Positions 10,906-45,412 of a stretch of DNA of 64,000 nt are shown here, piece by piece. The DNA lies in the NCBI GenBank assembly GCA_042577985.1, contig JBHPDI010000001.1, positions 2,334-66,333 of the forward strand, given 5' to 3'. This DNA is from Halobacteriota archaeon. Lineage in GTDB: Archaea > Halobacteriota > UBA148. Numbering within the stretch: position 1 is the stretch's first letter; each line of letters starts with the position of its first letter. The translations under genes and the position numbers were made by a program. The notes below the pieces were generated by a model. The model was not told where the DNA came from. It did not search any database and saw nothing but the letters and a program-made list of their open reading frames with translations.

Positions 10906-11176
10906 CGATTAGTGATTCTTTCTTGTGGTTTTTCTTTCTATATTTTTATTAGATCAGAAATGTTGTATCTCTCGTTGACATCGCATTTTTTCATATGAGT
11001 ATGATATCAAAATTTTATAATACTTTTCTGTTATTCCTTCAAATCGAATTTCTGAGCTTTGCTTTAAATATCAAAATTCATCCTAATTAGTACTATCAAA
11101 CGAATATTATCTCGCTTAATAGTTGTTAAATACAATTTTATTTTTGCCCCTAGATTTTTAAAGCTTAATTATTCCC

Positions 11177-11847: not shown

Positions 11848-12115
11848 CTCTGCGGACGCAGGTTTCCAGAACTTCGTAACTGGAAACGAATATAACAGGA
11901 ATTTAACGGTTCAGAAACCTTGCAGGGTTTTTCCACCCAAATTACAACCTTCGGTCGTGACTTCGTATATCCGCGAGAAGTTAAATTCAATTGAACCTAA
12001 TATCCTTAATGTTCTTTGGGATTTTAGAATTCTTCGCTCTATTACCATCAAAACAAGTAACTTGAATGCATTTCAGACATAATGCTTAAGATGTCTTGTG
12101 TAAAAGGATGTCATC

Positions 12116-32433: not shown

Positions 32434-33354
32434 TTATTCCTGCGATTTCATCTTCCACATAAATGGAATCCCAATCAATGATACCAGCCAATACCTAACA
32501 ATAGAAAATAAGATGCCAACACCCAACAATTTTTCTGGTGCAGCAAACCCTGAGAAAAGAAAAATAATGGCCGCATCACGAGTACCCATACCGCCCAGTG
32601 TAACTGGAATCAATCCAATGAAAATTGCAATTGGGATATTAGCCATTGTGAAGAACAAGGGAACGTTAATTCTCAATGCATAGAAAAATATTAGGGTTTG
32701 TAATATTGATATACTCCAAATTAAAAGAGAATAAGAGAGAATAATCGAAAATACTCTTTTATCTTTCGTTAGTAATTTCGTAGAAAGAATCAGGTTTTGA
32801 ATTTTTTCATTCCATGAACTCTTTATCGGCAAGCGGAAATTAAAACCAGCGTGTGCAAGAAGAAATATTGCAATTATGAAAATGAAGATGCTTAACGCAA
32901 TAAAAGCTAACTCATATTTCTTACAAAACGTCATGCCAATTAAAGAAAACAAAACAAGTGTAAGAAAATCAAACATTCTCTCGGTTATTACGCTGCCAAC
33001 TGTTTTACTTGCTGGAATCTTATTTTTTAAATAATATGCCTTGATAACATCTCCTGACTTGGAAGGAGTAATCGAAGTTAAAGGAAGAGCAGCCATTATC
33101 AAGTTAAGGCATTCTTTGTATGGTAATTTATAGCCCATTATTTCTAAGATTATTTGCCATCGTTTTGCAATGATAGGTATGATCAAAAATAACAATAAAA
33201 GCGCAATAAGCAGATAAAAGAGATTAGCGTGCGATAATACATCCATAACCGAATAAAAATCTATTTTTGTGAAGATGAAGTAGAAAATGGCTATTGTGAT
33301 GGCTAATACAATAACCGATTTCAATACTGAACTGCTGCTCCTTTTCAATGTCAC
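32434..33354 (-). CDS. Flippase-like domain membrane protein (UPF0104 / LPG-synthase-TM-like)
   Basis: 306 aa with ~8 TM helices and the conserved RW...P.RSGD-type loop (IAKRWQIILE...TPSKSGDVIKAY). Confidence 0.55.
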   Translation of the reverse strand: MTLKRSSSSVLKSVIVLAITIAIFYFIFTKIDFYSVMDVLSHANLFYLLIALLLLFLIIPIIAKRWQIILEIMGYKLPYKECLNLIMAALPLTSITPSKSGDVIKAYYLKNKIPASKTVGSVITERMFDFLTLVLFSLIGMTFCKKYELAFIALSIFIFIIAIFLLAHAGFNFRLPIKSSWNEKIQNLILSTKLLTKDKRVFSIILSYSLLIWSISILQTLIFFYALRINVPLFFTMANIPIAIFIGLIPVTLGGMGTRDAAIIFLFSGFAAPEKLLGVGILFSIVRYWLVSLIGIPFMWKMKSQE

Positions 33355-33460
33355 TCTTCCTTCTCCTTCTACATCTTTTAAAATCCCTCTAATTATAACT
33401 ACTTTTTACTTTTTTTAAATCAATCTTTATATACTTACTATTTGCTATAGAATTAATAAA

Positions 33461-35218
33461 TTGTATGATAACAATAACGAAAGGGGAGGATGTATGACAA
33501 AATCAATTCCAAAGATAGTATGCGGAGCATTTACGATGTATTTATCCTTGGTGATTTTGGTAGGTTATTATATGGACCACTTTGGTTTTTCGCTCACGAT
33601 TGGCAGAATTATTTTGCCTTTACTTGCAATTTCTATTTTCTATATTGGTTTTAAATTTTTTAAGCATACTCCAATCTCTTACGAATTCGATAAAACATAT
33701 ACCCTAATATTTTTTACAATATTAACTGTATCATTCATCTATTTTTTGTTGCCTTCTCTACCCTCTTTCCTGCCTTTAGGCAGTAATGTGGACGCCCCCC
33801 AAGCGTATGCAATTACAAAATTAATTGCTGATACCCGTTCCTTGTTGTTGCACCAAGATTTTATTTGGTTGGATTATCAACCGGTATGGAAGGTCTACCC
33901 ATTTGGGTTGCATCTAAATGTTGCAGTTATTTCGTGGATTTCAAATATACTCCCTATCAAACTTATATATCCATTTATGTGTTTGATTATTTCAATGTCT
34001 ATTGCGGGAGTATATGGAATAACAGTGGAATCAAAAATAACCGATAACAAATACCTTGCTGCCATTCCAAGTTTTTTACTGGTAACTTTTGTTCTTCTTA
34101 ACCTCCAGATGAGGTTAGGGGGCCCATTCCCACGACTCTTTGGTGCTTTTTTGATAATAATGTTCGTGTGGTTCCTGATGGATTATGTCAAAAGACCTTC
34201 ATTATTATCGGTGATTCCGCTGATTTTAATTGAATGTGCCGTGATTAATAGTTATCCCACTTTTTCAATAATACCCATTGCAATGTTTACTTTTGCATTA
34301 ATTTTTGCGATAGATCAAAAAAAGATAAAAATACCTCATTTCATTTTGTTTAATGTTATTGTACTTCTGTTGTCCATTTCTTATGTCATCTATTTTTATA
34401 ACACGACTGCATACCTTACAAATACTGGAAATCTAGATGTAATAAACCAACCTAGCACCATGGGAATACAAATAATGCCATTCAATCCCTGGTTAAGCGA
34501 TCAGTCCATCTATGTGAACTTGGCTAACATGGCTGCAACGTTATTTTTTGTTGTTTCCATTCCGGGGTTTTTATTACATTTTACTGACAAAAAAGCCAGA
34601 GAACTCATATTATTTTATAGCATTGTATCATTACAAATATTGGCATTCCTAGTTCTTGTTTTTCTTATTAACATGCGATTGATGCCAATAAATAATACAA
34701 TCTATGTGCTGATGTACCCTGCCGCTATTGCTATATTTCTTGGGATAAAAAAAATTTTTGATATTGAGAATATATCAAAGAAATTTAGTGCAATTGCATT
34801 TGTCTGCATGATTTTATTAACATTCGCAACTGCGCCTGTTATGTCTCTCGGATGTTCGACAGGTCTAACAGGCAGAGAGGTGGGTATTACTCAAGACGAA
34901 TATGATACTGCTCTGTGGGTTAAAAATAATATTGGTGAAGATGTTTCAGTTTTAGCAGATCCGGGGGCACAGTTCTTCTTCTTTGTAGCATCAGAACAAA
35001 AAAACATAACATTAATATATTCCTCTTATGAACACTTGAATAAAGAATTTAGAGAATGGCAAACGCAAGCGAAATCCGGTGATATTGTAGTAGTATTAAA
35101 TATATATGCAGTTAGTTCGGCCATTGTTTTACATCAGGATAATACCGTGGACATAGATAATACTACATATGAGATTTTATATCCTAAGGGAGTTTGTTAC
35201 GTTTTGAGGTATATCTAA
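33461..35218 (+). CDS. Large polytopic membrane protein with C-terminal soluble domain, GT-C-fold glycosyltransferase-like
   Basis: 585 aa with >10 TM helices and a ~130-aa hydrophilic C-terminal domain, an architecture like the ArnT/PMT/AglB class. No catalytic motif was confirmed. Confidence 0.35.
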   Translation: MYDNNNERGGCMTKSIPKIVCGAFTMYLSLVILVGYYMDHFGFSLTIGRIILPLLAISIFYIGFKFFKHTPISYEFDKTYTLIFFTILTVSFIYFLLPSLPSFLPLGSNVDAPQAYAITKLIADTRSLLLHQDFIWLDYQPVWKVYPFGLHLNVAVISWISNILPIKLIYPFMCLIISMSIAGVYGITVESKITDNKYLAAIPSFLLVTFVLLNLQMRLGGPFPRLFGAFLIIMFVWFLMDYVKRPSLLSVIPLILIECAVINSYPTFSIIPIAMFTFALIFAIDQKKIKIPHFILFNVIVLLLSISYVIYFYNTTAYLTNTGNLDVINQPSTMGIQIMPFNPWLSDQSIYVNLANMAATLFFVVSIPGFLLHFTDKKARELILFYSIVSLQILAFLVLVFLINMRLMPINNTIYVLMYPAAIAIFLGIKKIFDIENISKKFSAIAFVCMILLTFATAPVMSLGCSTGLTGREVGITQDEYDTALWVKNNIGEDVSVLADPGAQFFFFVASEQKNITLIYSSYEHLNKEFREWQTQAKSGDIVVVLNIYAVSSAIVLHQDNTVDIDNTTYEILYPKGVCYVLRYI

Positions 35219-35240
35219 TTTTTAATGTAAAATGTGAGAA

Positions 35241-36542
35241 TTAAAATATTCGCACCACTGTGAAAGATAAACATAGTCCTGCAAGAGCAAATGCAATGCC
35301 AACTATTATACTTCTTTTGATATATGTGTAGTGTTTGCTATTATAAATTAAGTATTGAGTTATTAGTGCGCCACCAATCAATATCAAGGCAATATCTGCC
35401 ATGTATATGTAGGGATATTTATCTAATGCCCCAATGTATGATTGGTAGAACTGAGGTGCCACAACTATTGTTATTATAACCCAAGATGCAGAAAGATACA
35501 TGATTATTTTTGATTTCCACTCCTCAAATTCAAATCCTTCTAACAATAAAAAAATTGGAAGTATAAAACCTACATACCGTAGCTGACCGTATCCATAAAC
35601 AGGAAATATGCTAATCAATAAATAACCTGCAACTCCCCATGCTAAAAGTGCTGCAATTTTATCTTCATTTTTCTTATAATACGTCCACATAACCAGCAAC
35701 AATAGCGCAGTGACCACAAAATAACTGAGCTGCGCATATACAGAGATATCTCCCCATTTTATTCCTGGATAATGATGCCAATATATAGAACGAACATCGG
35801 TGTTCATCAAGCCGTATGTAATTTTAGTGTACCAATTCCATCCTATATAGGTTATTCCGCCTGCCAATAAGGGAAATATATTCTTGAATTTACGTTTGAA
35901 TATGAAGTCATATAAAAATAGTCCCCCTGCAACAACAAAGCTAAAACGAGTAAGAATACCTATAGAATACAAAAAGCAGCTTATCGTATAGTTTTCTTTT
36001 AAATAACAATAAACCAAAGCTAAGCATAAAACATAACCTAGGGGTTCAGATAAACCAATAGTTCCCCATGCCACAATAAAAGGATTTAGAGTAACTACAA
36101 TTGTGCATAATTTAATCTTTGTTTTTTCTTGAAAAAGTTCAGATGAGGCCAAATATGCAAGAATTGGAGTTGCTACAATTAAACAGAAACTATTGATTAG
36201 TAGCATTGACTCCTTAAAAGGAAAAATCAATGACAAAATCCTAATGCAAAAAGGATAAAATGGTGGGAATCCCACAAATTCTGGTATATAGTATCCATTT
36301 TGAGCTATTCCCAAATAAAACCAACCATCCCACACAGATGCCAAATCACTAAGGGCATCATGTGGGTAATAACCCCAACCCACGCCACCATAACCAAGCG
36401 TAGAAAAAACAATAAACATGCGAGCCAAATGCAAAAAAAAGGAAATGATTATTAAACCAAGTAAAAACTTATAGTCCTCTTGAAATTTCTTTTTTCCTTT
36501 CTCAATAACCCTGCTTATCATATGATTTATGGCATAAATCAT
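35241..36542 (-). CDS. Polytopic membrane protein, GT-C-like (DUF2029/GT87-type candidate)
   Basis: 433 aa with ~11 TM helices and aromatic-rich loops. Confidence 0.35.
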   Translation of the reverse strand: MIYAINHMISRVIEKGKKKFQEDYKFLLGLIIISFFLHLARMFIVFSTLGYGGVGWGYYPHDALSDLASVWDGWFYLGIAQNGYYIPEFVGFPPFYPFCIRILSLIFPFKESMLLINSFCLIVATPILAYLASSELFQEKTKIKLCTIVVTLNPFIVAWGTIGLSEPLGYVLCLALVYCYLKENYTISCFLYSIGILTRFSFVVAGGLFLYDFIFKRKFKNIFPLLAGGITYIGWNWYTKITYGLMNTDVRSIYWHHYPGIKWGDISVYAQLSYFVVTALLLLVMWTYYKKNEDKIAALLAWGVAGYLLISIFPVYGYGQLRYVGFILPIFLLLEGFEFEEWKSKIIMYLSASWVIITIVVAPQFYQSYIGALDKYPYIYMADIALILIGGALITQYLIYNSKHYTYIKRSIIVGIAFALAGLCLSFTVVRIF

Positions 36543-36565
36543 TTTTTAGTTACCCTTCCTTTCTG

Positions 36566-38221
36566 TTACCCTTCCTTTCTACCACATATTAAAATATCAC
36601 AACCTACTCCTAGTAACTCCAATCTTTTTTCTAATCCTTGTAAAAGAGCCAATAGCCTTTCAGAATTTAGTAAGGCGATAAAGGGCGATAAAACAAAAAG
36701 AGTTGAGACATGATAGACGTTGACGTCATTGTCTTTTAGAAGTTCTTTCAACTCCTTTGGACTGAATATTCTTAGATGTTGTTCAGCATAGTTCCGTCCC
36801 TTCCCAAAATGATCCCAAAAGAACTCTATTAGCGACCAGAGAGAGTTTGAATTGGGCATAGTAATGCTAACTCTCCCGCCTGGTTTTAGTATGCCTGACA
36901 CCTCGGCAATCATTCTCTCTGGCTCTGGTACATGTTCTATTATATTTCCCAATATTGCAACATCGAAAGTATGGGGCTTAAATGGCAAGTTTTGAGCATC
37001 TGCAACAATAAAATTGGTTTTTTCATTTCCTCTACTTCTCGCATATAGAACACCGGGGCGACTCAAGTCAAATCCAACTACTTTACCCCCAAATTCTGTG
37101 CACTTACGTGAAATCACACCAGACCCGCACCCCATATCTAATATGAGTTCATTTTGTCCAATTTTAGTGTTTTCAAATAAATTCTTTATCCTTCTTCTCT
37201 GCCAATGCCTCTGTATAAGAATATCTGAATTATATGCGATTTCATCAATGTCCCCCTGTACCTCTTCATATCTTTCCCTCAAACCTGTGCCAGTGATTTC
37301 TGAGATGAAAAAGCCCTTAAGCCCAAGACAGTCAACAGAAGTGTTCATAACTCTAACTATTACTGCAAATGCTACGCTAGCACTGATCGGAACTCCAATC
37401 AAACTAAACGTTTCTGATATCCCAAATTCTTGTATTCCAAGCCCAGCTGAGGTGAAAGGTACCATTGATAGGGCAGTAAGAAGTGGGTTTAAAAACAAAG
37501 ACTTCAATATACTGAGATCGATACCAAGTGCCCTGCCTATCATAAACCACTCAAAACCCCTTAAAATCCATCCTAAAAACGAGATTGAAAGAATCATGGG
37601 AATAAAGCCCCTAACCTTAGCTGATTCTTTCTGTACTTTCAGAATGAAGCTGCCTATTCTATGCTTCTCAAGTATCTTTCTGATTCTGTCTGGGATATGT
37701 ATGTTGAAGAAAGTTAAAGCAACCACAATAAGAAGTGCGACTATCATTAGACCAATCGAAAGAACTCGAAGGATATAGCCCGGTATGCCTATCAAGCTAA
37801 GTATCATTAACACAGCTACCGCGCCAAATACGACCTTTAATATGAGGTCGAACACATAGCAATAAGAGATAGTAGATAACGCAGCCTCTGGTTTAATCCC
37901 TCTTTTTTTAAGTGGAACCAATGAGTACATATATCCCGATCTTGCCGGAGTAAAATCTGAGACTATCATCCCACACATATGTGCCCAAAAAACTTGCCCC
38001 AGCCGTATTTTCTTATCCACCTTTTTAAAAATTATATGTAATCTGTATGCCATAATAAAATTGTTCAAGAAATAGGCTAATACAGCTAAAGTCAAAAATA
38101 GAAAATTAAGGTTTGTAAGAATTTCAGCGACTTCCTCGAAATCTGTGGTGTACACAATTGCTATTACAATTGCAATCCCAATGAGGATCTGGATTATAGT
38201 ATATCCTTTATTTTTCATCAC
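36566..38221 (-). CDS. Fusion protein: N-terminal flippase-like (UPF0104) membrane domain + C-terminal class I SAM-dependent methyltransferase
   Basis: 551 aa. Residues 1-330 contain TM helices with the FTPARSGYMYSL loop. Residues ~360-551 contain MTase motif I (LILDMGCGSGVIS) and post-I (VVGFDLS...). Confidence 0.6.
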   Translation of the reverse strand: MMKNKGYTIIQILIGIAIVIAIVYTTDFEEVAEILTNLNFLFLTLAVLAYFLNNFIMAYRLHIIFKKVDKKIRLGQVFWAHMCGMIVSDFTPARSGYMYSLVPLKKRGIKPEAALSTISYCYVFDLILKVVFGAVAVLMILSLIGIPGYILRVLSIGLMIVALLIVVALTFFNIHIPDRIRKILEKHRIGSFILKVQKESAKVRGFIPMILSISFLGWILRGFEWFMIGRALGIDLSILKSLFLNPLLTALSMVPFTSAGLGIQEFGISETFSLIGVPISASVAFAVIVRVMNTSVDCLGLKGFFISEITGTGLRERYEEVQGDIDEIAYNSDILIQRHWQRRRIKNLFENTKIGQNELILDMGCGSGVISRKCTEFGGKVVGFDLSRPGVLYARSRGNEKTNFIVADAQNLPFKPHTFDVAILGNIIEHVPEPERMIAEVSGILKPGGRVSITMPNSNSLWSLIEFFWDHFGKGRNYAEQHLRIFSPKELKELLKDNDVNVYHVSTLFVLSPFIALLNSERLLALLQGLEKRLELLGVGCDILICGRKEG

Positions 38222-38224
38222 ATC

Positions 38225-38938
38225 TTATTCCCCAAATAATGATTTTAAACTTAACCTTAATTTTAACACTACTATTGGATACTCTATAATAATTTTAATA
38301 TTTGATTTAGATAATCCCTTCGCCCTGTTCCTAAATATTATAGGTATCTCTTTCATTGTAAATTTTTTCTGCTTAATTTTAAAAAGAGTTTCTGGACCTA
38401 CACTATATCCTTTTGAAAAGTAATTATCTAAATTTATTGATCCCAAAACCTCTTTTCTGTAACACTTATAACCTCCACTACTATCTTTTACTTCTAGTCC
38501 TAATATTATCCTGTTATATATATTTGAGATGTGACTTAGTAAGATATTCTTAAAATGGCAGTTTATAGAGTTCCCACCTTTAACGTATCTAGAACCGATA
38601 ACAACATCATACTTTTTAATTTCTTCCAAAAACCTTGGGATATCCGCAGGGTCATGAGAAAAATCCGCGTCCATTTCAAAAATACAGTCTACATTCTGTG
38701 TTAAAGCGTATTTAAAGCCCGTAATACCTGCTGTCCCTCTCCCACGCTCATTACGATGAATAACATGAACCATGCCAGCATATTCTTTTGCCAATTTATC
38801 AGCAATTTGCCCTGTACTATCTGGAGAGTTGTCATCCACAATCAAAATGTTTACATTTTTATTTTTTAATATCTCTCTAACTATATCTTCAATGTTTTCT
38901 TTTTCATTGTATGTAGGAAGCATCACTATCGCTTTCAT
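38225..38938 (-). CDS. GT2 dolichyl/polyprenyl-phosphate hexose synthase (DPM1-like), soluble form
   Basis: 237 aa. Has KAIVMLPTYNEKENI...VDDNSPDSTG...DADFSH. Confidence 0.75.
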   Translation of the reverse strand: MKAIVMLPTYNEKENIEDIVREILKNKNVNILIVDDNSPDSTGQIADKLAKEYAGMVHVIHRNERGRGTAGITGFKYALTQNVDCIFEMDADFSHDPADIPRFLEEIKKYDVVIGSRYVKGGNSINCHFKNILLSHISNIYNRIILGLEVKDSSGGYKCYRKEVLGSINLDNYFSKGYSVGPETLFKIKQKKFTMKEIPIIFRNRAKGLSKSNIKIIIEYPIVVLKLRLSLKSLFGE

Positions 38939-38957: not shown

Positions 38958-39611
38958 TCACTTGACATTGCCCTTTTCCCAATCATTAAGAAATTGTCTT
39001 ATTCCAATATCTGTCAGAGGGTGTACAATCATTTTTTCAATAACATTAAAAGGAATAGTGGCAACATGTGCACCAGCTTTTGCTGCCTCTATCACATGCA
39101 ATGGATGTCGAATGCTCGCAACGATGACCTCAGTTTTTATATTGTAGTTATTGAAAATCGTTATAATCTCCCTTACCAAGTTCATTCCTTCATGACCTAT
39201 ATCATCTAACCGTCCAATGAATGGACTGACATAACTGGCACCCGACTTAGCGGCAAGCAATGCTTGATTCGCTGAGAAGATTAACGTCATATTCACTTTA
39301 ATATTTTCCATGTTTAATATTTTCGTGGCTTTTAACCCTTCTTTGGTTATGGGAATCTTTACAATAATATTTGGTGCCAATTTTGATAATTTCCTTGCCT
39401 CTTCGACCATCTCCTCTGTCCTTAAACTAATAACTTCAGCACTAATCGGTCCATTCACGATGCTACAAATATCCTTTAGCAGTTCCTGAAAATCCATCTC
39501 TTCTCTGGCTATTAGGGTTGGGTTAGTTGTCACTCCATCAAGTATCCCTAAACCATTAGCCTTCTTTATCTCTTCGATATTCGCAGTGTCAATAAAAAAT
39601 TTCATTTCCAA
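38958..39611 (-). CDS. tal: Transaldolase / fructose-6-phosphate aldolase (short TalC/Fsa type)
   Basis: 217 aa. Has [12 protein letters not shown]...GVTTNP...KIP, the characteristic Schiff-base Lys context. Confidence 0.8.
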
Positions 39612-40198
39612 TCACTATCCTCTAAAATCCATTTAGCAGCGGCATACAAATCGGAAGCGGTATAATCTATATTTTCATTTTTTTTCACGCTTTGAACACG
39701 CCCAGTTAGAACTAATATCGTTTTACAACCCATTTTAATCCCAGGTACTAGGTCTGTCATCTTATCCCCTATTACGTAAGATTCTTTTAAGTCAATATCC
39801 AAATCATGCGCTGCTTGCTTTAACATACCTGGATTTGGCTTTCTGCAATAACAACCAACATCTGGATGATGTGGACAATAATATATAGCATCTAAAAATG
39901 CTCCTTCTTTAGATAATTCCTTTTCCATCTTTTGATGAATATTTATCAGCATTTCTTCGGTAAAATATCCACGCACAACACCGGCTTGATTTGTAAAAAC
40001 TACAACCTTTAAACCAGCATTATTCAATAATTTAATTGCTTCCCCCACTCCTGATATAAGTTTAAACTCATTTGGATGACGAGGAGCAAACTGATTAGAC
40101 TCTGGATGAACTACTTCTTCATTGGTCGTCCCGTCCCTATCCAAGAATACTGCTCTATTCATTATCACCACCAAAAAGCTCTTTTTCAACAATGTCAC
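39602..40198 (-). CDS. gmhB: D-glycero-D-manno-heptose 1,7-bisphosphate phosphatase (HAD-IIIA, GmhB)
   Basis: [10 protein letters not shown] (HAD motif I) and VVFTNQAG, plus a Cys-rich Zn motif (CYCRKPNPG) typical of GmhB. The probable true start is MNRAVF at 40162. Confidence 0.7.
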
Positions 40199-40724
40199 AA
40201 ATAATATGCCCTATCGTAATGTGTGCCTCTTGAATTCTAGGAGTGTTGCTCGATGGAACCTTTATGCATAGATCAACAACTTTAGCAAGTTCACCTCTTC
40301 TACCAATAAAACCAATTGTTATTGCACCTTTTTCTTTGGCAGTTCTTATACCTTTTATAACATTTGGGGAACTACCGCTGGTGCTGATACCTATAACAAT
40401 GTCGCCACGCTCAACCAGTGCTTCGACTTGTCTTGAAAAAACATTATTATATCCATAGTCGTTTCCAATGGCTGTTAGAATGGATGTATTAGTAGTGAGT
40501 GCGATTGCTGGCAATCCCTTTCTTTCCAACATAAACTTGCTAACTAGCTCACACGCTATATGTTGAGCATCTGCTGCACTTCCACCGTTCCCAAATAAAA
40601 CAACTTTTTTTCCATTTTCATAAGCTTTAATAATCCTCTCACATATTTTCTCTATTTCAGCGCTTTGTTCACGAAGTTCCATTTTAATTCTTGCACCCTC
40701 CTCTAACATCTCACTTATCTTCAT
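40155..40724 (-). CDS. gmhA: Sedoheptulose-7-phosphate isomerase (SIS domain, GmhA)
   Basis: Has KVVLFGNGGSAADAQH...GISTSGSSPNVI. The start was trimmed to MKISEM; the track ORF extends to 40772. Confidence 0.8.
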   Translation of the reverse strand: MKISEMLEEGARIKMELREQSAEIEKICERIIKAYENGKKVVLFGNGGSAADAQHIACELVSKFMLERKGLPAIALTTNTSILTAIGNDYGYNNVFSRQVEALVERGDIVIGISTSGSSPNVIKGIRTAKEKGAITIGFIGRRGELAKVVDLCIKVPSSNTPRIQEAHITIGHIICDIVEKELFGGDNE

Positions 40725-41727
40725 CTCCAACCTTCCATATTTGTAATCCTTTTGTTTCAAATCCAAAATCAATTATCTTCACACCATATTCTTTGATTTT
40801 ATCTTCCACTTTGTACTTCTTGTCGTACTCGCAGAAGAGCAAAAGATGTCCTCCCCCTCCTGCACCAAGTATCTTTCCGCCAATTGCTCCGTTCTCTCTT
40901 GCAATTTCATATAGCTTGTCTATTTCAGGGTTAGTTATTTTATTTGATAGCCTTTTCTTTTCTATCCATCCTTGATGTAAAAGCTCACCAAATCTCCTAA
41001 GATTACCTTTAATCAGAGAATATTTCATTTCATCGGCAATACTCTTCAGATTATGCATTCCTTCTATCGAGTCTTTTTTTCTTTCTTTATATCTTTTTAC
41101 CAGATCAACTTGAATTTCACTCGACAGTCTTGTATCACCTGTATAACAGAGCAACAAGCGATATTGGAGTTCGTTTAAATTTTCAGAACGGAGTCGCAAC
41201 GGATTTACAATGACTTCATCCTTAAATTCGATATAGTTAAGTCCTCCAAATGTGGAAGCGTATTGATCCTGATATCCTCCTTCCATCTTTAACTCTTCTC
41301 TCTCTATATGATATGCGAGTTCTGCGACTTCGTATCCCTCCATGCAAATCTCAAGGAATTCTTTGAAAGCCCCTATCAAAGCCACTGTAACTGCAGATGA
41401 GATGCCCATTCCAGAGCCAGGCGGCATATCGCTATGTATTAATAAATCACATCCTTTATCAACACTAAACTCGTTTATTATTGCTTTTACTATGTCTAAT
41501 CTGCCATTGTATTCCAGTTCTTCTCCAATTTCAAAGCTTTTTTTTAATCTATAATCCAATGAATATATGTTAATTGCTTTATTTTTATTCGGTGTAATGG
41601 TGGCGTATGCATATTTATTTATGGTAGTGCTGATCACTGCGCCGCCATGTTCTCGACAGTAAGGTGGCACATCAGTTCCTCCACCTCCAAAACTGATCCG
41701 AAAAGGGGATCTACTCCTTATGACCAT
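40711..41727 (-). CDS. hddA: D-glycero-alpha-D-manno-heptose 7-phosphate kinase (GHMP kinase, HddA-type)
   Basis: 338 aa. Has RSPFRISFGGGGTD (GHMP N-terminal motif), PPGSGMGSSA (ATP loop), and gene context consistent with the heptose pathway. Confidence 0.7.
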   Translation of the reverse strand: MVIRSRSPFRISFGGGGTDVPPYCREHGGAVISTTINKYAYATITPNKNKAINIYSLDYRLKKSFEIGEELEYNGRLDIVKAIINEFSVDKGCDLLIHSDMPPGSGMGISSAVTVALIGAFKEFLEICMEGYEVAELAYHIEREELKMEGGYQDQYASTFGGLNYIEFKDEVIVNPLRLRSENLNELQYRLLLCYTGDTRLSSEIQVDLVKRYKERKKDSIEGMHNLKSIADEMKYSLIKGNLRRFGELLHQGWIEKKRLSNKITNPEIDKLYEIARENGAIGGKILGAGGGGHLLLFCEYDKKYKVEDKIKEYGVKIIDFGFETKGLQIWKVGDEDK

Positions 41728-42449
41728 ATTAGCTCCTCCAGCTCTTTTTTGATCCTCTCATAGTCTTCTGGTGTGCCCAAGTCTCGAAAGTAACAATTCG
41801 TTTTATATCCAAATATGCGATTTGTTTCCACTATCTTTGGAAAAAGGTCATATTCAATAGAAAATACCTCTTTGGCAGGCATATAACTGTATATGTCTAA
41901 GTCAAAGACATAAGCACCCGTGTTAATACTTCCAAAGTTTTTTTCACTTTTTTCTATAAATTTCGTAATTATGCAATGTTCATTAATTTCGACTGCTCCG
42001 TATCTATGGTTTTCTTCATTTATGTTAGCCAGTGATATTGTTGCTAAACCCTTTTTTTCTTCATGAAAACTCAAAAAATCAGTGAAATCTGTGAGGAGAT
42101 AAGTATCTCCATTCATAACCATGAATTTATCTTCATTAACAACATAGGATTCCGCGTTTTTTAGAGCCCCGCCAGTTCCCAAAGGTTTTTCCTCCTCCAC
42201 ATATTCAATGTGTACCTCAAACTTTTTCCCATTTCCAAAGTAATTCTTGATTTCATTACTCATATACCCAACAGAAAGAATAATGTCTCTTAGATTGAAC
42301 CTCTTTAGCAATTCGATTTGCCATTCCAAAAAGGGCTTTCCACATATTTGAGCCATAGGCTTTGGCTTATCACTAATAATTTTCCGAAGCCTTGTTCCAA
42401 GTCCACCAGCCAAGATTATTGTTTTCATAATAAGCCTATTTTTTTTCAA
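41718..42449 (-). CDS. hddC: D-glycero-alpha-D-manno-heptose 1-phosphate guanylyltransferase (HddC-type NTP transferase)
   Basis: 243 aa. Has IILAGGLGTRLR...KPKPM, and gene context consistent with the heptose pathway. Confidence 0.7.
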   Translation of the reverse strand: MKKNRLIMKTIILAGGLGTRLRKIISDKPKPMAQICGKPFLEWQIELLKRFNLRDIILSVGYMSNEIKNYFGNGKKFEVHIEYVEEEKPLGTGGALKNAESYVVNEDKFMVMNGDTYLLTDFTDFLSFHEEKKGLATISLANINEENHRYGAVEINEHCIITKFIEKSEKNFGSINTGAYVFDLDIYSYMPAKEVFSIEYDLFPKIVETNRIFGYKTNCYFRDLGTPEDYERIKKELEELIWS

Positions 42450-42604: not shown

Positions 42605-43534
42605 CTATTTTAAGACTTTCTTTGCCGACTCAACTATTTTTCTTGTCGTTAAACTATACAACTCATACAACTCATTAGTATCGCCAGATTGTCCAAATCT
42701 ATCTCGAACTGCTACAAACTCCATCGGTACCACTTCATTACATACAATTGTTTCTGCTACTGCGCCACCTAATCCCCCCAAGATACTATGCTCTTCTACT
42801 GTAATGATTGCCCCGGTTTCACGGGCTGCTTTTATTATAATATCTGTATCAATAGGCTTAATCGTATGTATGTTGATCACCCTTGCATCAATCCCTTCTT
42901 TATTAAGGTCATCCGCTGCATCTAATGCCTTACTAACCATCGTTCCAGTTGCTATGATCGTCAAATCAGATCCTTCTCTCAGCGTTATACCTTTTCCCAA
43001 CTCGAATTGGTAATTCGAATCAAATAGGATTGGTGTTTTAATCCTACTCAAACGAACATAGAAAGGTCCTGGATAGTAAACGATTGCACATATTGCCTGT
43101 TTAGTCTCTTCTGCGTCGGCTGGCACAATAACCTGCATATTTGGAATGACTCGCATGAGGGCTATATCTTCTAGCGATTGATGGGAGGCACCGTCTGGAC
43201 CATTGCTCAGTCCTGCATGACTTACAACGATTTTTACATCCAGATTATCATGAGCTACTATACTTCTAATTTGTTCCCACGCTCTGCCAGTTGCAAAAAT
43301 CGCATATGAACTTGCAAAGGCTATTTTACCGGAATATGCAAGCCCAGCTGCCGTTCCTATCAAATCTTGCTCAGCACAACCAACATTAAAAAATCTCTTA
43401 GGGTATCTCTCTGCAAATTTACTCGTTTTTGTAGATGTTGAAAGATCTGCATCTAATACGACGATTCTTTCTTCTTTAGCACCTATCTCAGCTAAACACT
43501 CACCATAAGCATCACGTGTGGATTTTTCAATCAT
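42605..43534 (-). CDS. Transketolase, C-terminal (pyrimidine-binding) subunit
   Basis: 309 aa. GTAAGLA...VAHDN...GPDGASHQ matches the split-tkt B subunit. Confidence 0.8.
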   Translation of the reverse strand: MIEKSTRDAYGECLAEIGAKEERIVVLDADLSTSTKTSKFAERYPKRFFNVGCAEQDLIGTAAGLAYSGKIAFASSYAIFATGRAWEQIRSIVAHDNLDVKIVVSHAGLSNGPDGASHQSLEDIALMRVIPNMQVIVPADAEETKQAICAIVYYPGPFYVRLSRIKTPILFDSNYQFELGKGITLREGSDLTIIATGTMVSKALDAADDLNKEGIDARVINIHTIKPIDTDIIIKAARETGAIITVEEHSILGGLGGAVAETIVCNEVVPMEFVAVRDRFGQSGDTNELYELYSLTTRKIVESAKKVLK

Positions 43535-44382
43535 GCCAACACATCTCGTTTATAAATTGAATCCAATTCATTCAGTGCTTTTTCAATCTCTGTCGGAGTT
43601 GGTGCTCTTCCATGAAAATCTTTTATCCATTCCATAAAGGAAACACCTCTGCCCTTTATTGAATGAGCAATTATCACAGTTGGCTGCCCTCTCTTATTTT
43701 TTGAGGCATTAAATGCTTTTAAGACTTCTTTGACATCATAAGCATCCACCTCAATGACTCGCCAACCAAACGCATGCCATTTTTCTACGAGCGGTTCCAG
43801 ACTCATAATTTTCTCTGTTGGTCCGTCTATTTGCAGACCATTTCGATCTACAATAGCTACGAGATTATCTAAATTGTAATGAGCAGATGTCATTGCTGCC
43901 TCCCAGATTAGACCTTCGTCACACTCTCCATCCCCAAGGAGAACATAAACTCGGTAGTTTTTATTATCAATTTTTCCCGCCATAGCCATGCCATTTGCTA
44001 TCGAAAGTCCTTGACCTAATGAGCCTGAAGACATTTCTATCCCTGAGATTCTATTTCTATCAGGGTGTCCTTGGAGAACACTATTAACTCTTCGAAGATT
44101 TTCCAATTCTTCAAGCGGGATATAACCGGATTCCGCTAAAGCTGCATATAGTGTTGGGGCTGCGTGACCCTTGCTTAATACAAATCTATCTCTATCGGGC
44201 CAATTAGGATTTTTTGGATCATGGTGCATCACATAAAAATATAATGCTGTAATCACATCTACACATGACAATGACCCACCAGGATGCCCTGACCCAGCTT
44301 TTGAAATCATTTTTAAGACATGTACTCGAATTCTATATGCTTTTTCCAAAAGTCGTTTAATATCTTCTTCCCTTACTTTCAT
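43531..44382 (-). CDS. Transketolase, N-terminal (TPP-binding) subunit
   Basis: 283 aa. Has GSGHPGGSLS and LLGDGECDEG, the TPP-binding motif GDG-x-E. Confidence 0.8.
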   Translation of the reverse strand: MKVREEDIKRLLEKAYRIRVHVLKMISKAGSGHPGGSLSCVDVITALYFYVMHHDPKNPNWPDRDRFVLSKGHAAPTLYAALAESGYIPLEELENLRRVNSVLQGHPDRNRISGIEMSSGSLGQGLSIANGMAMAGKIDNKNYRVYVLLGDGECDEGLIWEAAMTSAHYNLDNLVAIVDRNGLQIDGPTEKIMSLEPLVEKWHAFGWRVIEVDAYDVKEVLKAFNASKNKRGQPTVIIAHSIKGRGVSFMEWIKDFHGRAPTPTEIEKALNELDSIYKRDVLA

Positions 44383-45412
44383 TCTCCTCTCTCGATATAG
44401 CCTCTTTTAATTCTTGTGTGGATAACAATGCCAAGCCCTTTTTATTCGCAGTCAATCCCGCGGCATAATTTGATAGTTTTGCTGCCTCTACTAGAGTTGC
44501 ACCTGTTGTTAGACCCAAAGCTAATACACTTGTAATCGTATCTCCAACACCTGTAACATCAAGTGGATTTTTTACAACCGGAGGAATAAAGGATACACTT
44601 TCATTTTGCTCAAAAACATAAAAACCTTCTTCTACCCATGTTATTAAAACTCCTTTGCATTCTAGCATGGTCATGATTCTTTGGCCCATATTTCGTATAC
44701 TTGTTTCGTTAATTGGTGTGACTCCAGTGGCATAACTTGCTTCTTTTCGATTTGCTCTAATCACGGTCACACCTTTGTATAATAAAAAATTTTCTTTTTT
44801 AGGGTCAACAACAATTTTTTTTCCATATTTCATCGTAATTTCGACTGCTGTGTCCACAAGTTTTGGCGTTATAACACCTCTACCATAATCAGAAATAACA
44901 ATTACATCCACATCATCAATTAATTCTTTTATATAATCTATAAGCATTATAGTGGTTTTAGAACCTATTTGTGCTTTGTCGGCTCTATCTAAACGAAGTA
45001 TTTGCTGTTCAAAAGTTCTAATCCTGGTTACCAAAGTTGTAGGCTCTTCTGTTCTAAAAATACCGTCTGTAGCTATGCCTCTATTCTTTAATTCGTTAAC
45101 CAAATAATCTCCCTCATGATCATCTCCAACAACACTCGCCACACAAATTTCTCCTCCCAGCGCATGAAGATTATTAACGGCATTTGCAGCTCCGCCTATC
45201 ACAAGAGACTCTGAGCTAATATCAACAACTGGTACTGGTGCTTCAGGCGAAATCCTGGTCACATCACCAATAATAAATTTGTCCACCATCACATCGCCTA
45301 TCACCAATATTTTCTTATTATTAAACTTGTCTACTATGTCAGATAGTTCTATTCTCTCACCTCTCTTTCTGCATAGTTTTGGAGTATTTAAATAAGTTAT
45401 GGTGTGCTGCAA
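44357..45412 (-). CDS. PfkB-family sugar kinase resembling HldE/RfaE domain I (D-beta-D-heptose 7-phosphate kinase)
   Basis: 351 aa. ILVIGDVMVDKFIIGDVTRISPEAPVPVV...GGAANAVNN closely parallels the RfaE kinase-domain N-terminus (VMVVGDVMLDRYWYG...ISPEAPVPVV...GGAANVA). Confidence 0.55.
   Translation of the reverse strand: MQHTITYLNTPKLCRKRGERIELSDIVDKFNNKKILVIGDVMVDKFIIGDVTRISPEAPVPVVDISSESLVIGGAANAVNNLHALGGEICVASVVGDDHEGDYLVNELKNRGIATDGIFRTEEPTTLVTRIRTFEQQILRLDRADKAQIGSKTTIMLIDYIKELIDDVDVIVISDYGRGVITPKLVDTAVEITMKYGKKIVVDPKKENFLLYKGVTVIRANRKEASYATGVTPINETSIRNMGQRIMTMLECKGVLITWVEEGFYVFEQNESVSFIPPVVKNPLDVTGVGDTITSVLALGLTTGATLVEAAKLSNYAAGLTANKKGLALLSTQELKEAISREENESKGRRY

What the first reader, a model, noticed from the sequence alone, without database searches (positions are those of the whole stretch)
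32434..38938. Lipid-linked sugar modification module with a flippase-like/methyltransferase fusion protein
The block contains a soluble DPM1-like polyprenyl-P-hexose synthase (38225) and two paralogous UPF0104 flippase-like membrane proteins (32434 and the N-terminal half of 36566). It also contains two large GT-C-like polytopic membrane proteins (33461, 35241). This resembles the three-component GtrA/GtrB/GtrX, ArnC/ArnT and PMT logic: a sugar is loaded onto polyprenyl-P, flipped, then transferred outside the membrane. The unusual element is the covalent fusion of a flippase-like domain to a class I SAM methyltransferase (36566). This could methylate a lipid-linked sugar, or glycan, at the membrane. 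I do not recognise this fusion as a described enzyme.
Basis: inference. Interest (0 to 1): 0.6.

Follow-up and report, generated by a model that had tools for sequence, protein, structure and literature searches.

The report
Archaeal sugar-lipid methylase-flippase glycosylation operon
An uncultured archaeon carries an operon that appears to make a seven-carbon sugar, load it on a lipid carrier, methylate and flip it with one fused protein, and attach it outside the cell; this is an untested variant of a known surface-glycosylation scheme.

Summary
The ORFs and most domain calls are real. 38225-38938 is a TM-less GT2 whose best solved relative is Pyrococcus dolichol-P-mannose synthase (E 1.7e-32). 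36566-38221 is a genuine PF03706 (MprF-flippase-like) + class I SAM methyltransferase fusion. About 30 full-length homologues at 36-87% identity exclude a frameshift. 32434-33354 is a second PF03706 protein.

The 433-aa protein (35241-36542) is a borderline PMT_2-type GT-C. It sits where a clear PMT_2 gene sits in all 10 Methanoregulaceae-type loci. The 585-aa protein is only weakly GT-C-like.

Its first eight genes look like a sedoheptulose-7-P to NDP-heptose pathway, and this linkage recurs in three related contigs. Relatives of the methyltransferase domain elsewhere sit beside, or are fused to, DPM1-like GT2s.

Best reading: an Arn-like four-step pathway of lipid-P-sugar synthase, on-lipid methylation, flipping and GT-C transfer.

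The GT2 + UPF0104 + GT-C neighbourhood was predicted in 2015. The methyltransferase fusion is listed in a 2022 domain catalogue, and I found no functional study of it.

Verdict: new variant of a known kind, moderately interesting. Biochemistry, substrate and sidedness are inferred, not shown.

The parts
44357..45412 (-). First gene of the operon: PfkB-family sugar kinase resembling RfaE domain I (heptose-7-P kinase).
   Evidence: Pfam PfkB 1.5e-32. NCBIfam TIGR02198 1.3e-90, 303.7 bits, below the cutoff of 345. A homologue holds the same position in L088.
43531..44382 (-). Transketolase, N-terminal (TPP-binding) subunit.
   Evidence: Pfam Transketolase_N 9.4e-60. Conserved in L087 and L088.
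42605..43534 (-). Transketolase, C-terminal (pyrimidine-binding) subunit.
   Evidence: Pfam Transket_pyr 7.9e-45 and Transketolase_C 6.8e-32. Overlaps the previous gene by 4 nt.
41718..42449 (-). Sugar-1-phosphate nucleotidyltransferase, HddC/ManC-like.
   Evidence: Pfam NTP_transferase 4.3e-36. NCBIfam HddC 1.2e-48 (166 bits, cutoff 300) and mannose-1-P guanylyltransferase 5.9e-53.
40711..41727 (-). GHMP kinase, HddA-like (D-glycero-D-manno-heptose 7-phosphate kinase).
   Evidence: NCBIfam NF049969 1.6e-85 over the full length, 287 bits, below the cutoff of 600. Pfam GHMP_kinases_N/C.
40155..40772 (-). GmhA-like sedoheptulose-7-phosphate isomerase (SIS_2).
   Evidence: NCBIfam TIGR00441 2.6e-56, 189.9 bits against a cutoff of 209; PRK13936 3.7e-58. 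Pfam SIS_2 8.5e-28.
39602..40198 (-). GmhB-like heptose 1,7-bisphosphate phosphatase (HAD-IIIA).
   Evidence: NCBIfam NF006506 5.7e-55, 185.7 bits, above the cutoff of 178.
38958..39611 (-). Transaldolase / fructose-6-phosphate aldolase family enzyme. With transketolase it could supply sedoheptulose-7-P.
   Evidence: NCBIfam TIGR00875 1.3e-99, 332 bits, above the cutoff of 246. Pfam TAL_FSA 2.1e-62.
38225..38938 (-). TM-less GT2, dolichol/polyprenol-phosphate sugar synthase-like (DPM1-like).
   Evidence: Pfam GT2 2.5e-30. PDB 5MLZ PfDPMS 1.7e-32 over its catalytic domain, with MDADfsH aligned to MDADLQH. No hydrophobic segment. AglJ, PpgS and Dol-P-hexose transferase hits are all below their cutoffs. 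The start lies 19 nt after the transaldolase stop.
36566..38221 (-). Fusion protein: PF03706 (MprF-flippase-like, 'PplT') membrane domain plus a C-terminal class I SAM methyltransferase.
   Evidence: The start lies 3-6 nt after the GT2 stop. 30 aligned homologues share an invariant SAM motif I, D-x-GCGSG.
37343..38188 (-). PF03706 membrane domain of the fusion (residues 12-293).
   Evidence: PF03706 9.8e-37 and TIGR00374 2.8e-24. Seven hydrophobic peaks by crude hydropathy; an 8-TM reading is my inference. The K/R-rich loops lie on the N-terminal side. Residues P255, G260 and G262-I-Q-E265 are invariant.
36710..37186 (-). Methyltransferase domain of the fusion (residues 346-504), preceded by a conserved linker at about residues 318-345.
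   Evidence: Methyltransf_11 5.8e-22 and Methyltransf_23 3.3e-19. No substrate-specific NCBIfam cutoff is reached. PDB hits are generic class I methyltransferases.
35241..36542 (-). Last gene of the operon: a 433-aa polytopic membrane protein, a diverged PMT_2-type GT-C candidate.
   Evidence: Orthologue P0052 scores 28.7 bits on PMT_2 against a gathering score of 26.1. NCBIfam NF046093 7.4e-10. The N-terminal tail is K/R-rich, and a 43-residue K/R-free first loop carries invariant D66 and W71-D72. The gene occupies the position held by PMT_2 in type B loci.
33461..35218 (+). 585-aa ORF (probable real start ATG 33494, giving 574 aa): about 12 TM segments plus a C-terminal beta-rich soluble domain. 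The family is uncharacterised and the GT-C assignment is weak.
   Evidence: No Pfam or NCBIfam hit. 113 remote relatives; 6 of 60 hit DUF6541 and 1 hits PTPS_related. P101, D111, H115, P147, G149, Y408 and K412 are nearly invariant. hhalign against PMT_2 gives 42% probability. The start codon context is shown.
32434..33354 (-). Stand-alone PF03706 (flippase-like) paralogue, transcribed divergently from the 585-aa gene.
   Evidence: PF03706 2.5e-47, TIGR00374 7.4e-36, MprF N-terminal region 4.1e-09. The same divergent pair occurs in L005.

Best explanation
The region is an extracytoplasmic glycosylation module with four steps, the logic of the Arn pathway (ArnC-ArnD-ArnEF-ArnT).

Step 1 (inferred from homology). 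The TM-less DPM1-like GT2 (38225-38938) transfers a sugar from a nucleotide sugar to dolichol/polyprenol phosphate on the cytoplasmic face.

Step 2 (inferred). The methyltransferase domain of the fusion (36566-38221) is held at the membrane on the cytoplasmic side. There it uses SAM to O-methylate the lipid-linked sugar.

Step 3 (inferred by analogy with MprF). The PF03706 domain of the same polypeptide moves the modified lipid-linked sugar to the outer leaflet.

Step 4 (inferred). The 433-aa PMT_2-like GT-C (35241-36542) transfers the methyl-sugar to an acceptor outside the cell. The acceptor is most likely a protein- or lipid-bound surface glycan made by the neighbouring + strand cluster.

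In the window's lineage the module is co-transcribed with eight genes that look like a pathway from sedoheptulose-7-P to NDP-D-glycero-D-manno-heptose. The sugar loaded there may therefore be a heptose, a mannose homologue. In Methanoregulaceae the same trio stands alone and probably uses a housekeeping hexose donor.

The divergent pair 32434-33354 / 33461-35218 may be a second flippase-like protein plus transferase-like protein. This is the weakest part.

My confidence by layer: general role as a lipid-P-sugar synthase/flip/GT-C module about 0.75; methylation at the lipid-linked monosaccharide stage about 0.45; heptose as the sugar about 0.35.
For: Shown by sequence:
- Domain identities.
- GT2 matches the PfDPMS catalytic domain at E 1.7e-32 with the DAD motif kept.
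- The fusion is conserved full-length in about 30 clusters, with invariant SAM motif I and an invariant P...G.GIQE motif.

Gene linkage:
- GT2 + fusion + PMT_2 are adjacent in 10 places: L001-L004, L006-L011, plus the P0014 contig. Gene order and orientation vary and the flanks are housekeeping genes.
- GT2-fusion-433-aa homologue are adjacent in L005, L086, L087 and L088, with overlapping or near-abutting stops and starts.
- One 433-aa family member passes the PMT_2 gathering score.

Link between the methyltransferase and the GT2 outside the fusion:
- Eight loci holding the closest stand-alone relatives of the methyltransferase domain have a DPM1-like GT2 next door.
- L016 encodes one 473-aa GT2-methyltransferase polypeptide. 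L020 has the methyltransferase directly upstream of a GT2+GtrA_DPMS_TM synthase.
- Other relatives are fused to GT1 or GT2 domains (P0034, P0042, P0043).

Heptose link:
- GmhB is above its cutoff. GmhA, HddA and HddC hits are strong but sub-cutoff.
- The same gene order recurs in L005, L087 and L088 at 55-87% fusion identity.

Precedents from papers:
- UPF0104 was predicted as a glycosylation flippase next to AglD-like GT2 and a PMT/STT3-like protein (PMC5898192).
- GpgSDF and HexSDF modify a lipid headgroup and are thought to flip it with a UPF0104 protein (PMC12713373).
- Dol-P-linked glycans are methylated in Haloferax and Halobacterium (PMC4335974, PMC11407970).
- Sugars are altered on the carrier lipid before use: DprE1/E2, and a predicted ORF13 step (PMC11127046). 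ArnD is a further example, from my own knowledge.

Sidedness:
- The K/R-rich loops and the N-terminus lie on one side.
- SAM and nucleotide sugars are cytoplasmic (established knowledge).
Against: - No biochemical datum exists for any member of the fusion family.
- The methyltransferase substrate is unassigned. All substrate-specific NCBIfam models are below cutoff, and PDB hits are generic and include lipid and phosphoethanolamine N-methyltransferases.
- Crude hydropathy gives 7 TM segments before the methyltransferase, not a clear 8. The cytoplasmic placement therefore rests on the positive-inside pattern and on SAM availability.
- No MprF structure was retrieved by sequence, so the fold could not be mapped.
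- The window's own 433-aa protein has no Pfam hit. hhalign against the syntenic PMT_2 proteins is weak: 15% probability, E 0.0017.
- Flippase activity of PF03706 outside MprF is unproven. GpgF, for example, has not been verified (PMC12713373).
- Co-transcription with heptose genes does not prove that the GT2 uses NDP-heptose. Other glycosyltransferases in the adjacent cluster could consume it.
- I found no report of a polyprenyl-P-heptose.
Confidence: 0.5

Rival explanations
1. Membrane-lipid headgroup modification, as in MprF, GpgSDF and HexSDF. The GT2 glycosylates a bulk archaeal membrane lipid, not a carrier. The methyltransferase methylates that glycolipid headgroup and the PF03706 domain flips the finished glycolipid to the outer leaflet. 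The polytopic partner is then not a donor-using GT-C, or it extends the glycolipid.
For: The UPF0104/PF03706 systems with experimental support that I found all concern membrane lipids: MprF and GpgSDF/HexSDF (PMC12713373; bioRxiv 10.1101/2022.03.11.483950). PDB relatives of the methyltransferase include PE and phosphoethanolamine N-methyltransferases and cyclopropane-fatty-acid synthases.
Against: The GT2 is far closer to dolichol-P-mannose synthase (E 1.7e-32) than to any other solved glycosyltransferase, and its other hits are ArnC-type carrier-lipid enzymes. A clear PMT_2 GT-C is the invariant third partner in 10 places, and by established knowledge such enzymes use polyprenyl-P-sugar donors. 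In L020 the partner GT2 carries a GtrA/DPMS TM domain.
Confidence: 0.15
2. The methyltransferase acts on a completed or growing Dol-P-linked oligosaccharide or another cytoplasmic substrate, like Haloferax AglP. The PF03706 domain serves mainly as a membrane anchor or scaffold for the TM-less GT2 and the methyltransferase, not as the transporter of the methylated monosaccharide.
For: AglP methylates a Dol-P-linked tetrasaccharide (PMC4335974). The window has a large glycan cluster with a Wzx-like flippase at 17327-18886 next door. The GT2 lacks its own anchor, and in AglD the same membrane domain is fused to the GT2 with no proven transport role (PMC5898192).
Against: In Methanoregulaceae the trio sits among housekeeping genes, with no oligosaccharide-assembly genes nearby. 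The methyltransferase clade is repeatedly paired or fused specifically with DPM1-like monosaccharide synthases. The PF03706 signature residues remain invariant, which argues for more than an anchor.
Confidence: 0.2
3. N-methylation of amino-polyol or ethanolamine lipid headgroups typical of Methanomicrobiales (from memory, methylated aminopentanetetrol lipids). The fusion would methylate and flip such phospholipids, and the GT2/GT-C linkage would be incidental.
For: In the species-representative genome scan, full-length fusions came only from Methanolinea, Methanoregula and a Methanomicrobiales MAG. The methyltransferase resembles phospholipid and phosphoethanolamine N-methyltransferases at E 1e-7 to 1e-12.
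Against: The GT2 and GT-C linkage is conserved across rearrangements and in two deeply diverged lineages. It also recurs as a GT2-methyltransferase fusion in Bathyarchaeota and as neighbours in bacteria, which I would not expect to make such lipids.
Confidence: 0.05
4. The 551-aa ORF is an assembly or frameshift artefact joining two genes.
For: None found.
Against: Thirty independent sequences from NCBI, JGI, ENA and Logan assemblies have the same roughly 550-aa architecture, with a conserved linker and no gap at the junction. Six genomes from two genera and one order-level MAG encode it.
Confidence: 0.01

Closest known systems
Arn pathway of Gram-negative bacteria (ArnC, ArnD, ArnE/F, ArnT)
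   Same: The same four-step logic. A GT2 loads a sugar on polyprenol-P (ArnC is among the GT2's solved relatives, E about 1e-9). The sugar is chemically altered while on the lipid, at the cytoplasmic face. It is then flipped, and a GT-C transfers it outside.
   Different: The on-lipid step here would be SAM-dependent methylation, not deformylation. The putative flippase is PF03706, not an SMR-type ArnE/F pair, and it is covalently fused to the modifying enzyme. The acceptor is unknown, not lipid A. The host is an archaeon using a dolichol-type carrier.
GtrA/GtrB/Gtr* and related three-component systems (C. youngae ORF15/14/12, mycobacterial DPA/DPR pathway; PMC11127046)
   Same: A polyprenyl-P-monosaccharide synthase, a dedicated flippase and a GT-C, used for post-assembly glycosylation outside the membrane. 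The mycobacterial variant (DprE1/E2), and as predicted the C. youngae O2 variant (ORF13), also alter the sugar on the lipid.
   Different: The flippase family differs: GtrA/SMR/MATE there, PF03706 here. No methylation step is described. The GT2 here lacks the GtrB/DPMS TM domain.
Haloferax volcanii AglD / AglR / AglS with AglP (archaeal N-glycosylation)
   Same: The archaeal precedent. AglD makes Dol-P-mannose and itself carries a C-terminal PF03706 domain (PMC5898192). From my own knowledge, a GT-C-type AglS adds that mannose outside the cell. AglP methylates a Dol-P-linked sugar (PMC4335974).
   Different: In AglD the PF03706 domain is fused to the GT2; here it is fused to the methyltransferase and the GT2 is separate. 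AglP is a soluble stand-alone enzyme acting on a tetrasaccharide. None of the NCBIfam Agl equivalog cutoffs is reached.
MprF and GpgSDF / HexSDF (PF03706 'PplT' proteins coupled to a cytoplasmic lipid-modifying enzyme)
   Same: A PF03706 membrane domain is genetically or physically coupled to an enzyme that decorates a lipid headgroup on the cytoplasmic side before translocation (PMC12713373; bioRxiv 10.1101/2022.03.11.483950).
   Different: Those systems modify bulk phospholipids or glycolipids and have no GT-C partner. MprF's partner domain is an aminoacyl-PG synthase (DUF2156), which is absent here.
GDP-D-glycero-alpha-D-manno-heptose pathway (GmhA, HddA, GmhB, HddC) of bacterial S-layer and capsule glycans
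   Same: All four enzyme types are present in one operon with strong matches, together with transketolase and transaldolase that can supply sedoheptulose-7-P.
   Different: Only GmhB passes its curated cutoff. An extra RfaE-domain-I-like kinase is present. In the known systems (from my own knowledge) the heptose is transferred directly from the nucleotide sugar by cytoplasmic glycosyltransferases, not via a polyprenyl-P intermediate.

Membership tests
PF03706 / UPF0104 / 'PplT' (MprF flippase-like membrane domain) | Pfam PF03706 match above the gathering score. | tested here: met
   32434-33354 scores 162.3 bits. The fusion N-terminal half scores 127.5 bits. The gathering score is 33.4.
PF03706 / UPF0104 / 'PplT' (MprF flippase-like membrane domain) | Polytopic domain of about 7-9 TM segments with conserved polar or charged intramembrane residues. 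| tested here: met
   Seven hydrophobic peaks by crude hydropathy. R60, H81, S88, T91-P92, G96-Y97, W218, R221, P246, P255 and G260-x-G-I-Q-E265 are invariant in 30 fusion homologues.
PF03706 / UPF0104 / 'PplT' (MprF flippase-like membrane domain) | Lipid translocation activity. | not testable with these tools
   Needs a flipping assay. Activity outside MprF is unproven even for GpgF (PMC12713373).
MprF (bifunctional aminoacyl-PG synthase/flippase) | C-terminal aminoacyl-phosphatidylglycerol synthase domain (DUF2156) and the NF033480 cutoff. | tested here: not met
   No DUF2156 hit. NF033480 scores 35 bits against a cutoff of 600, over the N-terminal region only.
AglD-type GT2-PF03706 fusion | GT2 catalytic domain and PF03706 domain in one polypeptide. 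| tested here: not met
   The GT2 is a separate 237-aa ORF ending 3-6 nt before the fusion start. The partner fused to PF03706 is a methyltransferase.
Polyprenol/dolichol-phosphate sugar synthase (DPM1 / DPMS / GtrB / ArnC type GT2) | GT-A GT2 catalytic domain with a DxD motif, homologous to solved DPMS. | tested here: met
   PF00535 2.5e-30. 5MLZ 1.7e-32, residues 1-223 against 23-242, with the DAD motif aligned.
Polyprenol/dolichol-phosphate sugar synthase (DPM1 / DPMS / GtrB / ArnC type GT2) | Curated equivalog score for a named enzyme (AglJ, PpgS, Dol-P-hexose transferase, ArnC). | tested here: not met
   Scores of 76 against 325, 64.6 against 370, 56.3 against 375 and 45.6 against 529 bits.
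Polyprenol/dolichol-phosphate sugar synthase (DPM1 / DPMS / GtrB / ArnC type GT2) | Transfer of a sugar to polyprenol phosphate, and the identity of the donor. | not testable with these tools
   Needs an enzyme assay or lipidomics.
GT-C glycosyltransferase (PMT_2-type): 433-aa protein 35241-36542 | Pfam GT-C family match above the gathering score. | tested here: inconclusive
   The window protein has no hit. The 89%-identical P0052 scores 28.7 bits against 26.1, while P0053 and P0054 score 25.4 and 25.9. hhalign against the syntenic PMT_2 set gives 15% probability, E 0.0017.
GT-C glycosyltransferase (PMT_2-type): 433-aa protein 35241-36542 | Cytoplasmic N-terminus, TM1, then a long first outside loop with conserved acidic residue(s). 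| tested here: met
   The N-terminal tail has 6 K/R. Loop 46-88 has 0 K/R and carries invariant D66 and W71-D72. The topology method is crude.
GT-C glycosyltransferase (PMT_2-type): 433-aa protein 35241-36542 | GT-C fold. | tested here: inconclusive
   The AlphaFold2 model has mean pLDDT 43.5 from a shallow 8-sequence alignment. No fold search was attempted.
GT-C glycosyltransferase: 585-aa protein 33461-35218 | Homology to any GT-C family. | tested here: inconclusive
   No Pfam or NCBIfam hit for the protein or its close orthologues. Among remote relatives, 6 of 60 hit DUF6541 and 1 hits PTPS_related. hhalign against PMT_2 gives 42% probability and nothing against the 433-aa family. The AF2 model has pLDDT 44.
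Class I SAM-dependent methyltransferase | Rossmann methyltransferase domain with glycine-rich motif I and an acidic residue after strand 2. | tested here: met
   Methyltransf_11/23/25/31/12 are all above their gathering scores. D362-x-G364-C-G-S367 and D385 are invariant in 30 homologues.
Class I SAM-dependent methyltransferase | Assignment to a substrate-defined subfamily. | tested here: not met
   UbiG, UbiE, BioC, ArsM and others are all far below their cutoffs. PDB hits are heterogeneous.
NDP-D-glycero-D-manno-heptose biosynthesis (GmhA, HddA, GmhB, HddC) | All four enzymes present and each passing its curated model. | tested here: inconclusive
   All four types are present in one operon. 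GmhB passes (185.7 against 178). GmhA scores 189.9 against 209, HddA 287 against 600 and HddC 166 against 300, all sub-cutoff but with E between 1e-48 and 1e-85.

The most novel reading that the evidence does not exclude
The fusion physically couples methylation to translocation. The methyl group added to a dolichol-P-linked sugar would be the licence for, or be mechanistically tied to, its flipping. That would give a molecular counterpart to the 1985 observation that Halobacterium Dol-P-glycans must be transiently methylated to cross the membrane. That observation is cited in PMC4335974 and PMC11407970, where it is described as not yet seen elsewhere. In the window's lineage the flipped donor would be a dolichol-P-(methyl)heptose. 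That would be a polyprenyl-phosphate heptose donor used by a GT-C enzyme, of which I found no report.
Probability: 0.15. Interest if true: 0.8.

Novelty: new variant of a known kind. Interest (0 to 1): 0.55.

Why it matters
How lipid-linked sugars cross archaeal membranes is still unresolved. PF03706 proteins are widespread candidate flippases with almost no experimental data outside MprF.

A conserved protein that joins such a domain to a methyltransferase, and that is always encoded with a carrier-lipid sugar synthase and a GT-C, gives a compact three-gene system. It could be expressed heterologously to test three things:
(i) whether PF03706 domains move polyprenol-P-sugars;
(iii) whether methylation and flipping are coupled.

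The heptose operon suggests a donor not described before, polyprenol-P-heptose. It would add to the very few heptose-containing archaeal glycans known.

If the module simply adds a terminal methyl-hexose to a surface glycan, it is a modest extension of known archaeal N-glycosylation logic.

Tried and rejected
- AlphaFold2 on the 433-aa and 585-aa families, using all orthologues I could find (8 and 9 sequences), gave pLDDT 43-44. In hindsight one job would have been better used on the fusion.
- PDB sequence searches did not retrieve any MprF structure, neither with the PF03706 half alone nor with an 11-sequence profile. The TM topology could not be mapped onto a solved fold.
- Profiles of both polytopic families found nothing meaningful in the PDB.
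- hhalign of the 433-aa and 585-aa families against the syntenic PMT_2 proteins was weak (15% and 42%). The two families showed no similarity to each other.
- NCBIfam on 60 remote relatives of the 585-aa protein found nothing.
- My first hydropathy script produced overlapping segments and was discarded. The second is crude.
- Looking up the window's own fusion protein in the contig index found no record. I could not place the organism more precisely than the 'Halobacteriota archaeon' label given by NCBI.
- Literature searches for PF03706 + glycosyltransferase, DUF6541, LPG_synthase_TM and polyprenyl 'phosphate heptose' gave nothing relevant.
- The frameshift-artefact idea was rejected.

Full report
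**What is there.** The window comes from an archaeal metagenome-assembled genome that NCBI labels 'Halobacteriota archaeon'. It has 23S and 5S rRNA and RNase P RNA at its left end.

- 32434-33354(-) is a stand-alone PF03706 protein (E 2.5e-47).
- 36566-38221(-) carries PF03706 at residues 12-293 (E 9.8e-37). A class I SAM methyltransferase domain follows at about residues 346-504 (Methyltransf_11 E 5.8e-22).
- 38225-38938(-) is a GT2 (E 2.5e-30).
- The GT2 has no hydrophobic segment. Its best solved relative is the catalytic domain of Pyrococcus furiosus dolichol-phosphate mannose synthase (5MLZ, E 1.7e-32). The DAD metal-binding motif aligns, and ArnC structures come next. 'Soluble DPM1-like synthase' is therefore a fair description. 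No curated NCBIfam equivalog (AglJ, PpgS, Dol-P-hexose transferase, ArnC) reaches its cutoff.

**The fusion is real.** A search of 5.8 billion proteins returned about 30 full-length homologues of roughly 550 aa from independent assemblies, at 36-87% identity. All carry both domains.

In the 30-sequence alignment there is no gap at the junction. The linker (GDIDE.AYNSD..VQR.WQRRR) is conserved. SAM motif I (D-x-G-C-G-S) and the following acidic residue are invariant. So are polar and charged residues of the membrane domain, including P255 and G260-x-G-I-Q-E265. This excludes a frameshift and argues that both halves are functional.

In one genome per species (GTDB), full-length copies were recovered from Methanolinea, Methanoregula and a Methanomicrobiales MAG.

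**The two polytopic proteins.** Neither window protein hits Pfam.

For the 433-aa protein (35241-36542):
- There is a sub-threshold NCBIfam hit to a 'cell surface glycopolymer formation' family (7.4e-10).
- Its 89%-identical orthologue passes the PMT_2 gathering score (28.7 against 26.1 bits). Two further orthologues fall just short.
- It has a K/R-rich N-terminal tail, one TM, then a 43-residue K/R-free loop with invariant D66 and W71-D72. That is the usual GT-C arrangement.
- I regard it as a diverged GT-C, with moderate confidence.

For the 585-aa ORF:
- It probably starts at ATG 33494, behind a GGGGAGG motif.
- It belongs to an uncharacterised family with 113 remote relatives. Six of 60 hit DUF6541 and one hits PTPS_related.
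- hhalign against PMT_2 gives 42% probability.
- About 12 TM segments plus a C-terminal beta-rich domain are compatible with a GT-C, but this remains unproven.
- AlphaFold models of both families were too poor to use.

**Context changes the picture.** From the coordinates, the minus-strand genes from 45412 down to 35241 form one tight 12-gene array. Most junctions overlap or are under 25 nt, and one gap is 155 nt.

The first eight genes are:
- a PfkB kinase resembling RfaE domain I;
- a split transketolase;
- an HddC/ManC-like nucleotidyltransferase;
- an HddA-like GHMP kinase;
- a GmhA-like isomerase;
- a GmhB phosphatase (above its curated cutoff);
- a transaldolase/FSA.

This is the enzyme set for making sedoheptulose-7-P and converting it to a nucleotide-activated D-glycero-D-manno-heptose. 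The GT2 starts 19 nt after the transaldolase gene. The fusion starts 3-6 nt after the GT2 stop. The 433-aa gene starts 23 nt after the fusion. The 585-aa gene and the stand-alone PF03706 gene form a divergent pair just beyond. A large + strand glycan cluster (12116-32354) adjoins it. That cluster holds nucleotidyltransferases, dehydratases, an aminotransferase, GT1 and GT2 enzymes, a Wzx-like flippase and two B12-radical SAM enzymes.

**Conserved linkage.** Two locus types emerged.

Type A is the window's lineage, with fusion identity of 44-87%.
- L088, L087 and L005 repeat the order heptose genes, GT2, fusion, 433-aa homologue.
- L086 has GT2, fusion and a 409-aa protein with overlapping stops and starts.

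Type B is Methanoregulaceae, with fusion identity of 36-40%.
- In 10 places, GT2, the fusion and an unambiguous PMT_2 GT-C of about 512 aa are adjacent. Methanolinea has two PMT_2 copies.
- The flanks are housekeeping genes, and gene order and orientation differ between loci.

Linkage that survives rearrangement across such divergence is good evidence for one functional unit: GT2 + PF03706-methyltransferase + GT-C. It also supports the 433-aa protein as the GT-C counterpart.

**Evidence on what the methyltransferase does.**
- Its sequence is generic.
- Its closest relatives outside the fusion are informative. Eight loci have a DPM1-like GT2 directly adjacent.
- A Bathyarchaeota locus (L016) encodes a single 473-aa GT2-methyltransferase protein.
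- An alphaproteobacterial locus (L020) has the methyltransferase immediately upstream of a GT2 with a GtrA/DPMS TM domain, followed by two more methyltransferases.
- Other relatives are fused to GT1 or GT2 domains.

The recurrent partner of this methyltransferase clade is therefore a carrier-lipid monosaccharide synthase. That points to the lipid-linked sugar as substrate.

On sidedness: the K/R-rich loops (11 and 9 K/R) and the N-terminus lie on one side, and SAM is cytoplasmic. I therefore place the methyltransferase in the cytoplasm. The crude TM count (7, with a plausible eighth around the GLGIQE segment) leaves this as inference.

**Mechanism proposed.** This is an Arn-like four-step route.
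1. The GT2 loads a sugar on dolichol/polyprenol-P.
2. The methyltransferase domain methylates it at the inner face.
3. The PF03706 domain flips it.
4. The GT-C transfers it outside to a surface glycan.

All four steps are inferred from homology and linkage; none is shown. In type A loci the co-transcribed pathway suggests a heptose, a mannose homologue, as the sugar. In type B a housekeeping hexose is more likely.

**Comparison with the literature.**
- Makarova et al. (PMC5898192) already identified UPF0104 as a probable flippase. They noted that AglD carries it, and they described the archaeal neighbourhood with an AglD-like GT2 and a PMT/STT3-like protein.
- A 2022 preprint on 'PplT' domains lists a SAM-methyltransferase combination among rarer architectures, without analysis (10.1101/2022.03.11.483950).
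- GpgSDF and HexSDF couple a cytoplasmic lipid-modifying enzyme with a UPF0104 protein (PMC12713373).
- Alteration of sugars on the carrier lipid before use is established for DprE1/E2 and predicted for a Citrobacter epimerisation step (PMC11127046). ArnD is a further example, from my own knowledge.
- Dol-P-linked glycans are methylated by AglP in Haloferax. In Halobacterium they are methylated transiently, apparently as a requirement for translocation (PMC4335974, PMC11407970).
- A heptose occurs in a Thermoplasma N-glycan (PMC11407970).
- I found no functional study of the fusion and no report of a polyprenyl-P-heptose.

Already known or predicted:
- the three-component idea;
- the UPF0104 association.

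New here:
- the methyltransferase fusion as a conserved member of the trio;
- the independent pairing and fusion of the methyltransferase with GT2s;
- the heptose operon link.

I class it as a new variant of a known kind and score interest at about 0.55. The upside would be larger if methylation and flipping prove to be coupled, or if the donor is a lipid-linked heptose.

Noticed in passing
window 1-2469: The 3' part of the 23S rRNA lies at 1-1608. A 122-nt Rfam tRNA match lies at 1721-1842; ARAGORN does not call it, so it may contain an intron. 5S rRNA lies at 1894-2015 and archaeal RNase P RNA at 2176-2469 on the minus strand.
   Followed up: partly
window 36549-36580: An exact 16-bp tandem duplication (GTTACCCTTCCTTTCT x2 on the + strand) spans the fusion gene's stop codon. 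On the coding strand 'AGAAAGGAAGGGTAAC' (R-K-E-G-stop) is repeated in the 23-nt spacer before the 433-aa gene. It may supply a ribosome-binding-like GGAAGGG.
   Followed up: partly
window 40711-41727 and 44357-45412: One operon holds two different heptose-7-phosphate-kinase-like genes, an HddA-like GHMP kinase and an RfaE-domain-I-like PfkB kinase. It holds only one nucleotidyltransferase and no RfaE-domain-II-like adenylyltransferase. The role of the second kinase is unexplained.
   Followed up: no
window 19006-20427 and 30822-32354; L088 12984-14423; L005 3183-4598: B12-binding radical SAM enzymes recur inside these glycan clusters. In L088 one sits between the 433-aa and 587-aa homologues. 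The window's 30822 copy is absent from the corresponding position in L005. They could be sugar C-methylases or other radical modifiers.
   Followed up: no
window 27870-29135 and 29132-30763; L005 15724-18627: An FrhB/FdhB-like F420-type iron-sulfur flavoprotein is paired with an overlapping 543-aa protein that has no family hit. The pair is conserved next to the PF03706 paralogue in L005. Its function in a glycan cluster is unclear.
   Followed up: no
L016 9224-10645 (Bathyarchaeota MAG) and L020 9164-12974 (Alphaproteobacteria MAG): L016 encodes a single 473-aa GT2 + Methyltransf_11 fusion. L020 has a methyltransferase, then a GT2 with a GtrA/DPMS TM domain, then two further methyltransferases (one FkbM-type) in a row. 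Methylation linked to carrier-lipid sugar synthases may be widespread beyond archaea.
   Followed up: partly
L006 12533-15670 and L007 12544-15750 (Methanolinea MAGs): Two tandem PMT_2 paralogues, 46% and 36% identical to the Methanoregula copy, follow the GT2 and the fusion. This suggests two acceptors or linkages served by one donor.
   Followed up: no
window 9129-9257: A 33-bp tandem repeat (3.9 copies, 96% matches) lies inside the 420-aa ORF 8324-9586. It would encode an 11-residue repeat.
   Followed up: no
window 9586-12116: A stretch of about 2.5 kb has the lowest GC of the window (31.5% at 10001-12000) and only short ORFs (134 aa or less, apart from a 148-aa ORF at its left edge). It lies just upstream of the + strand glycan cluster.
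   Followed up: no
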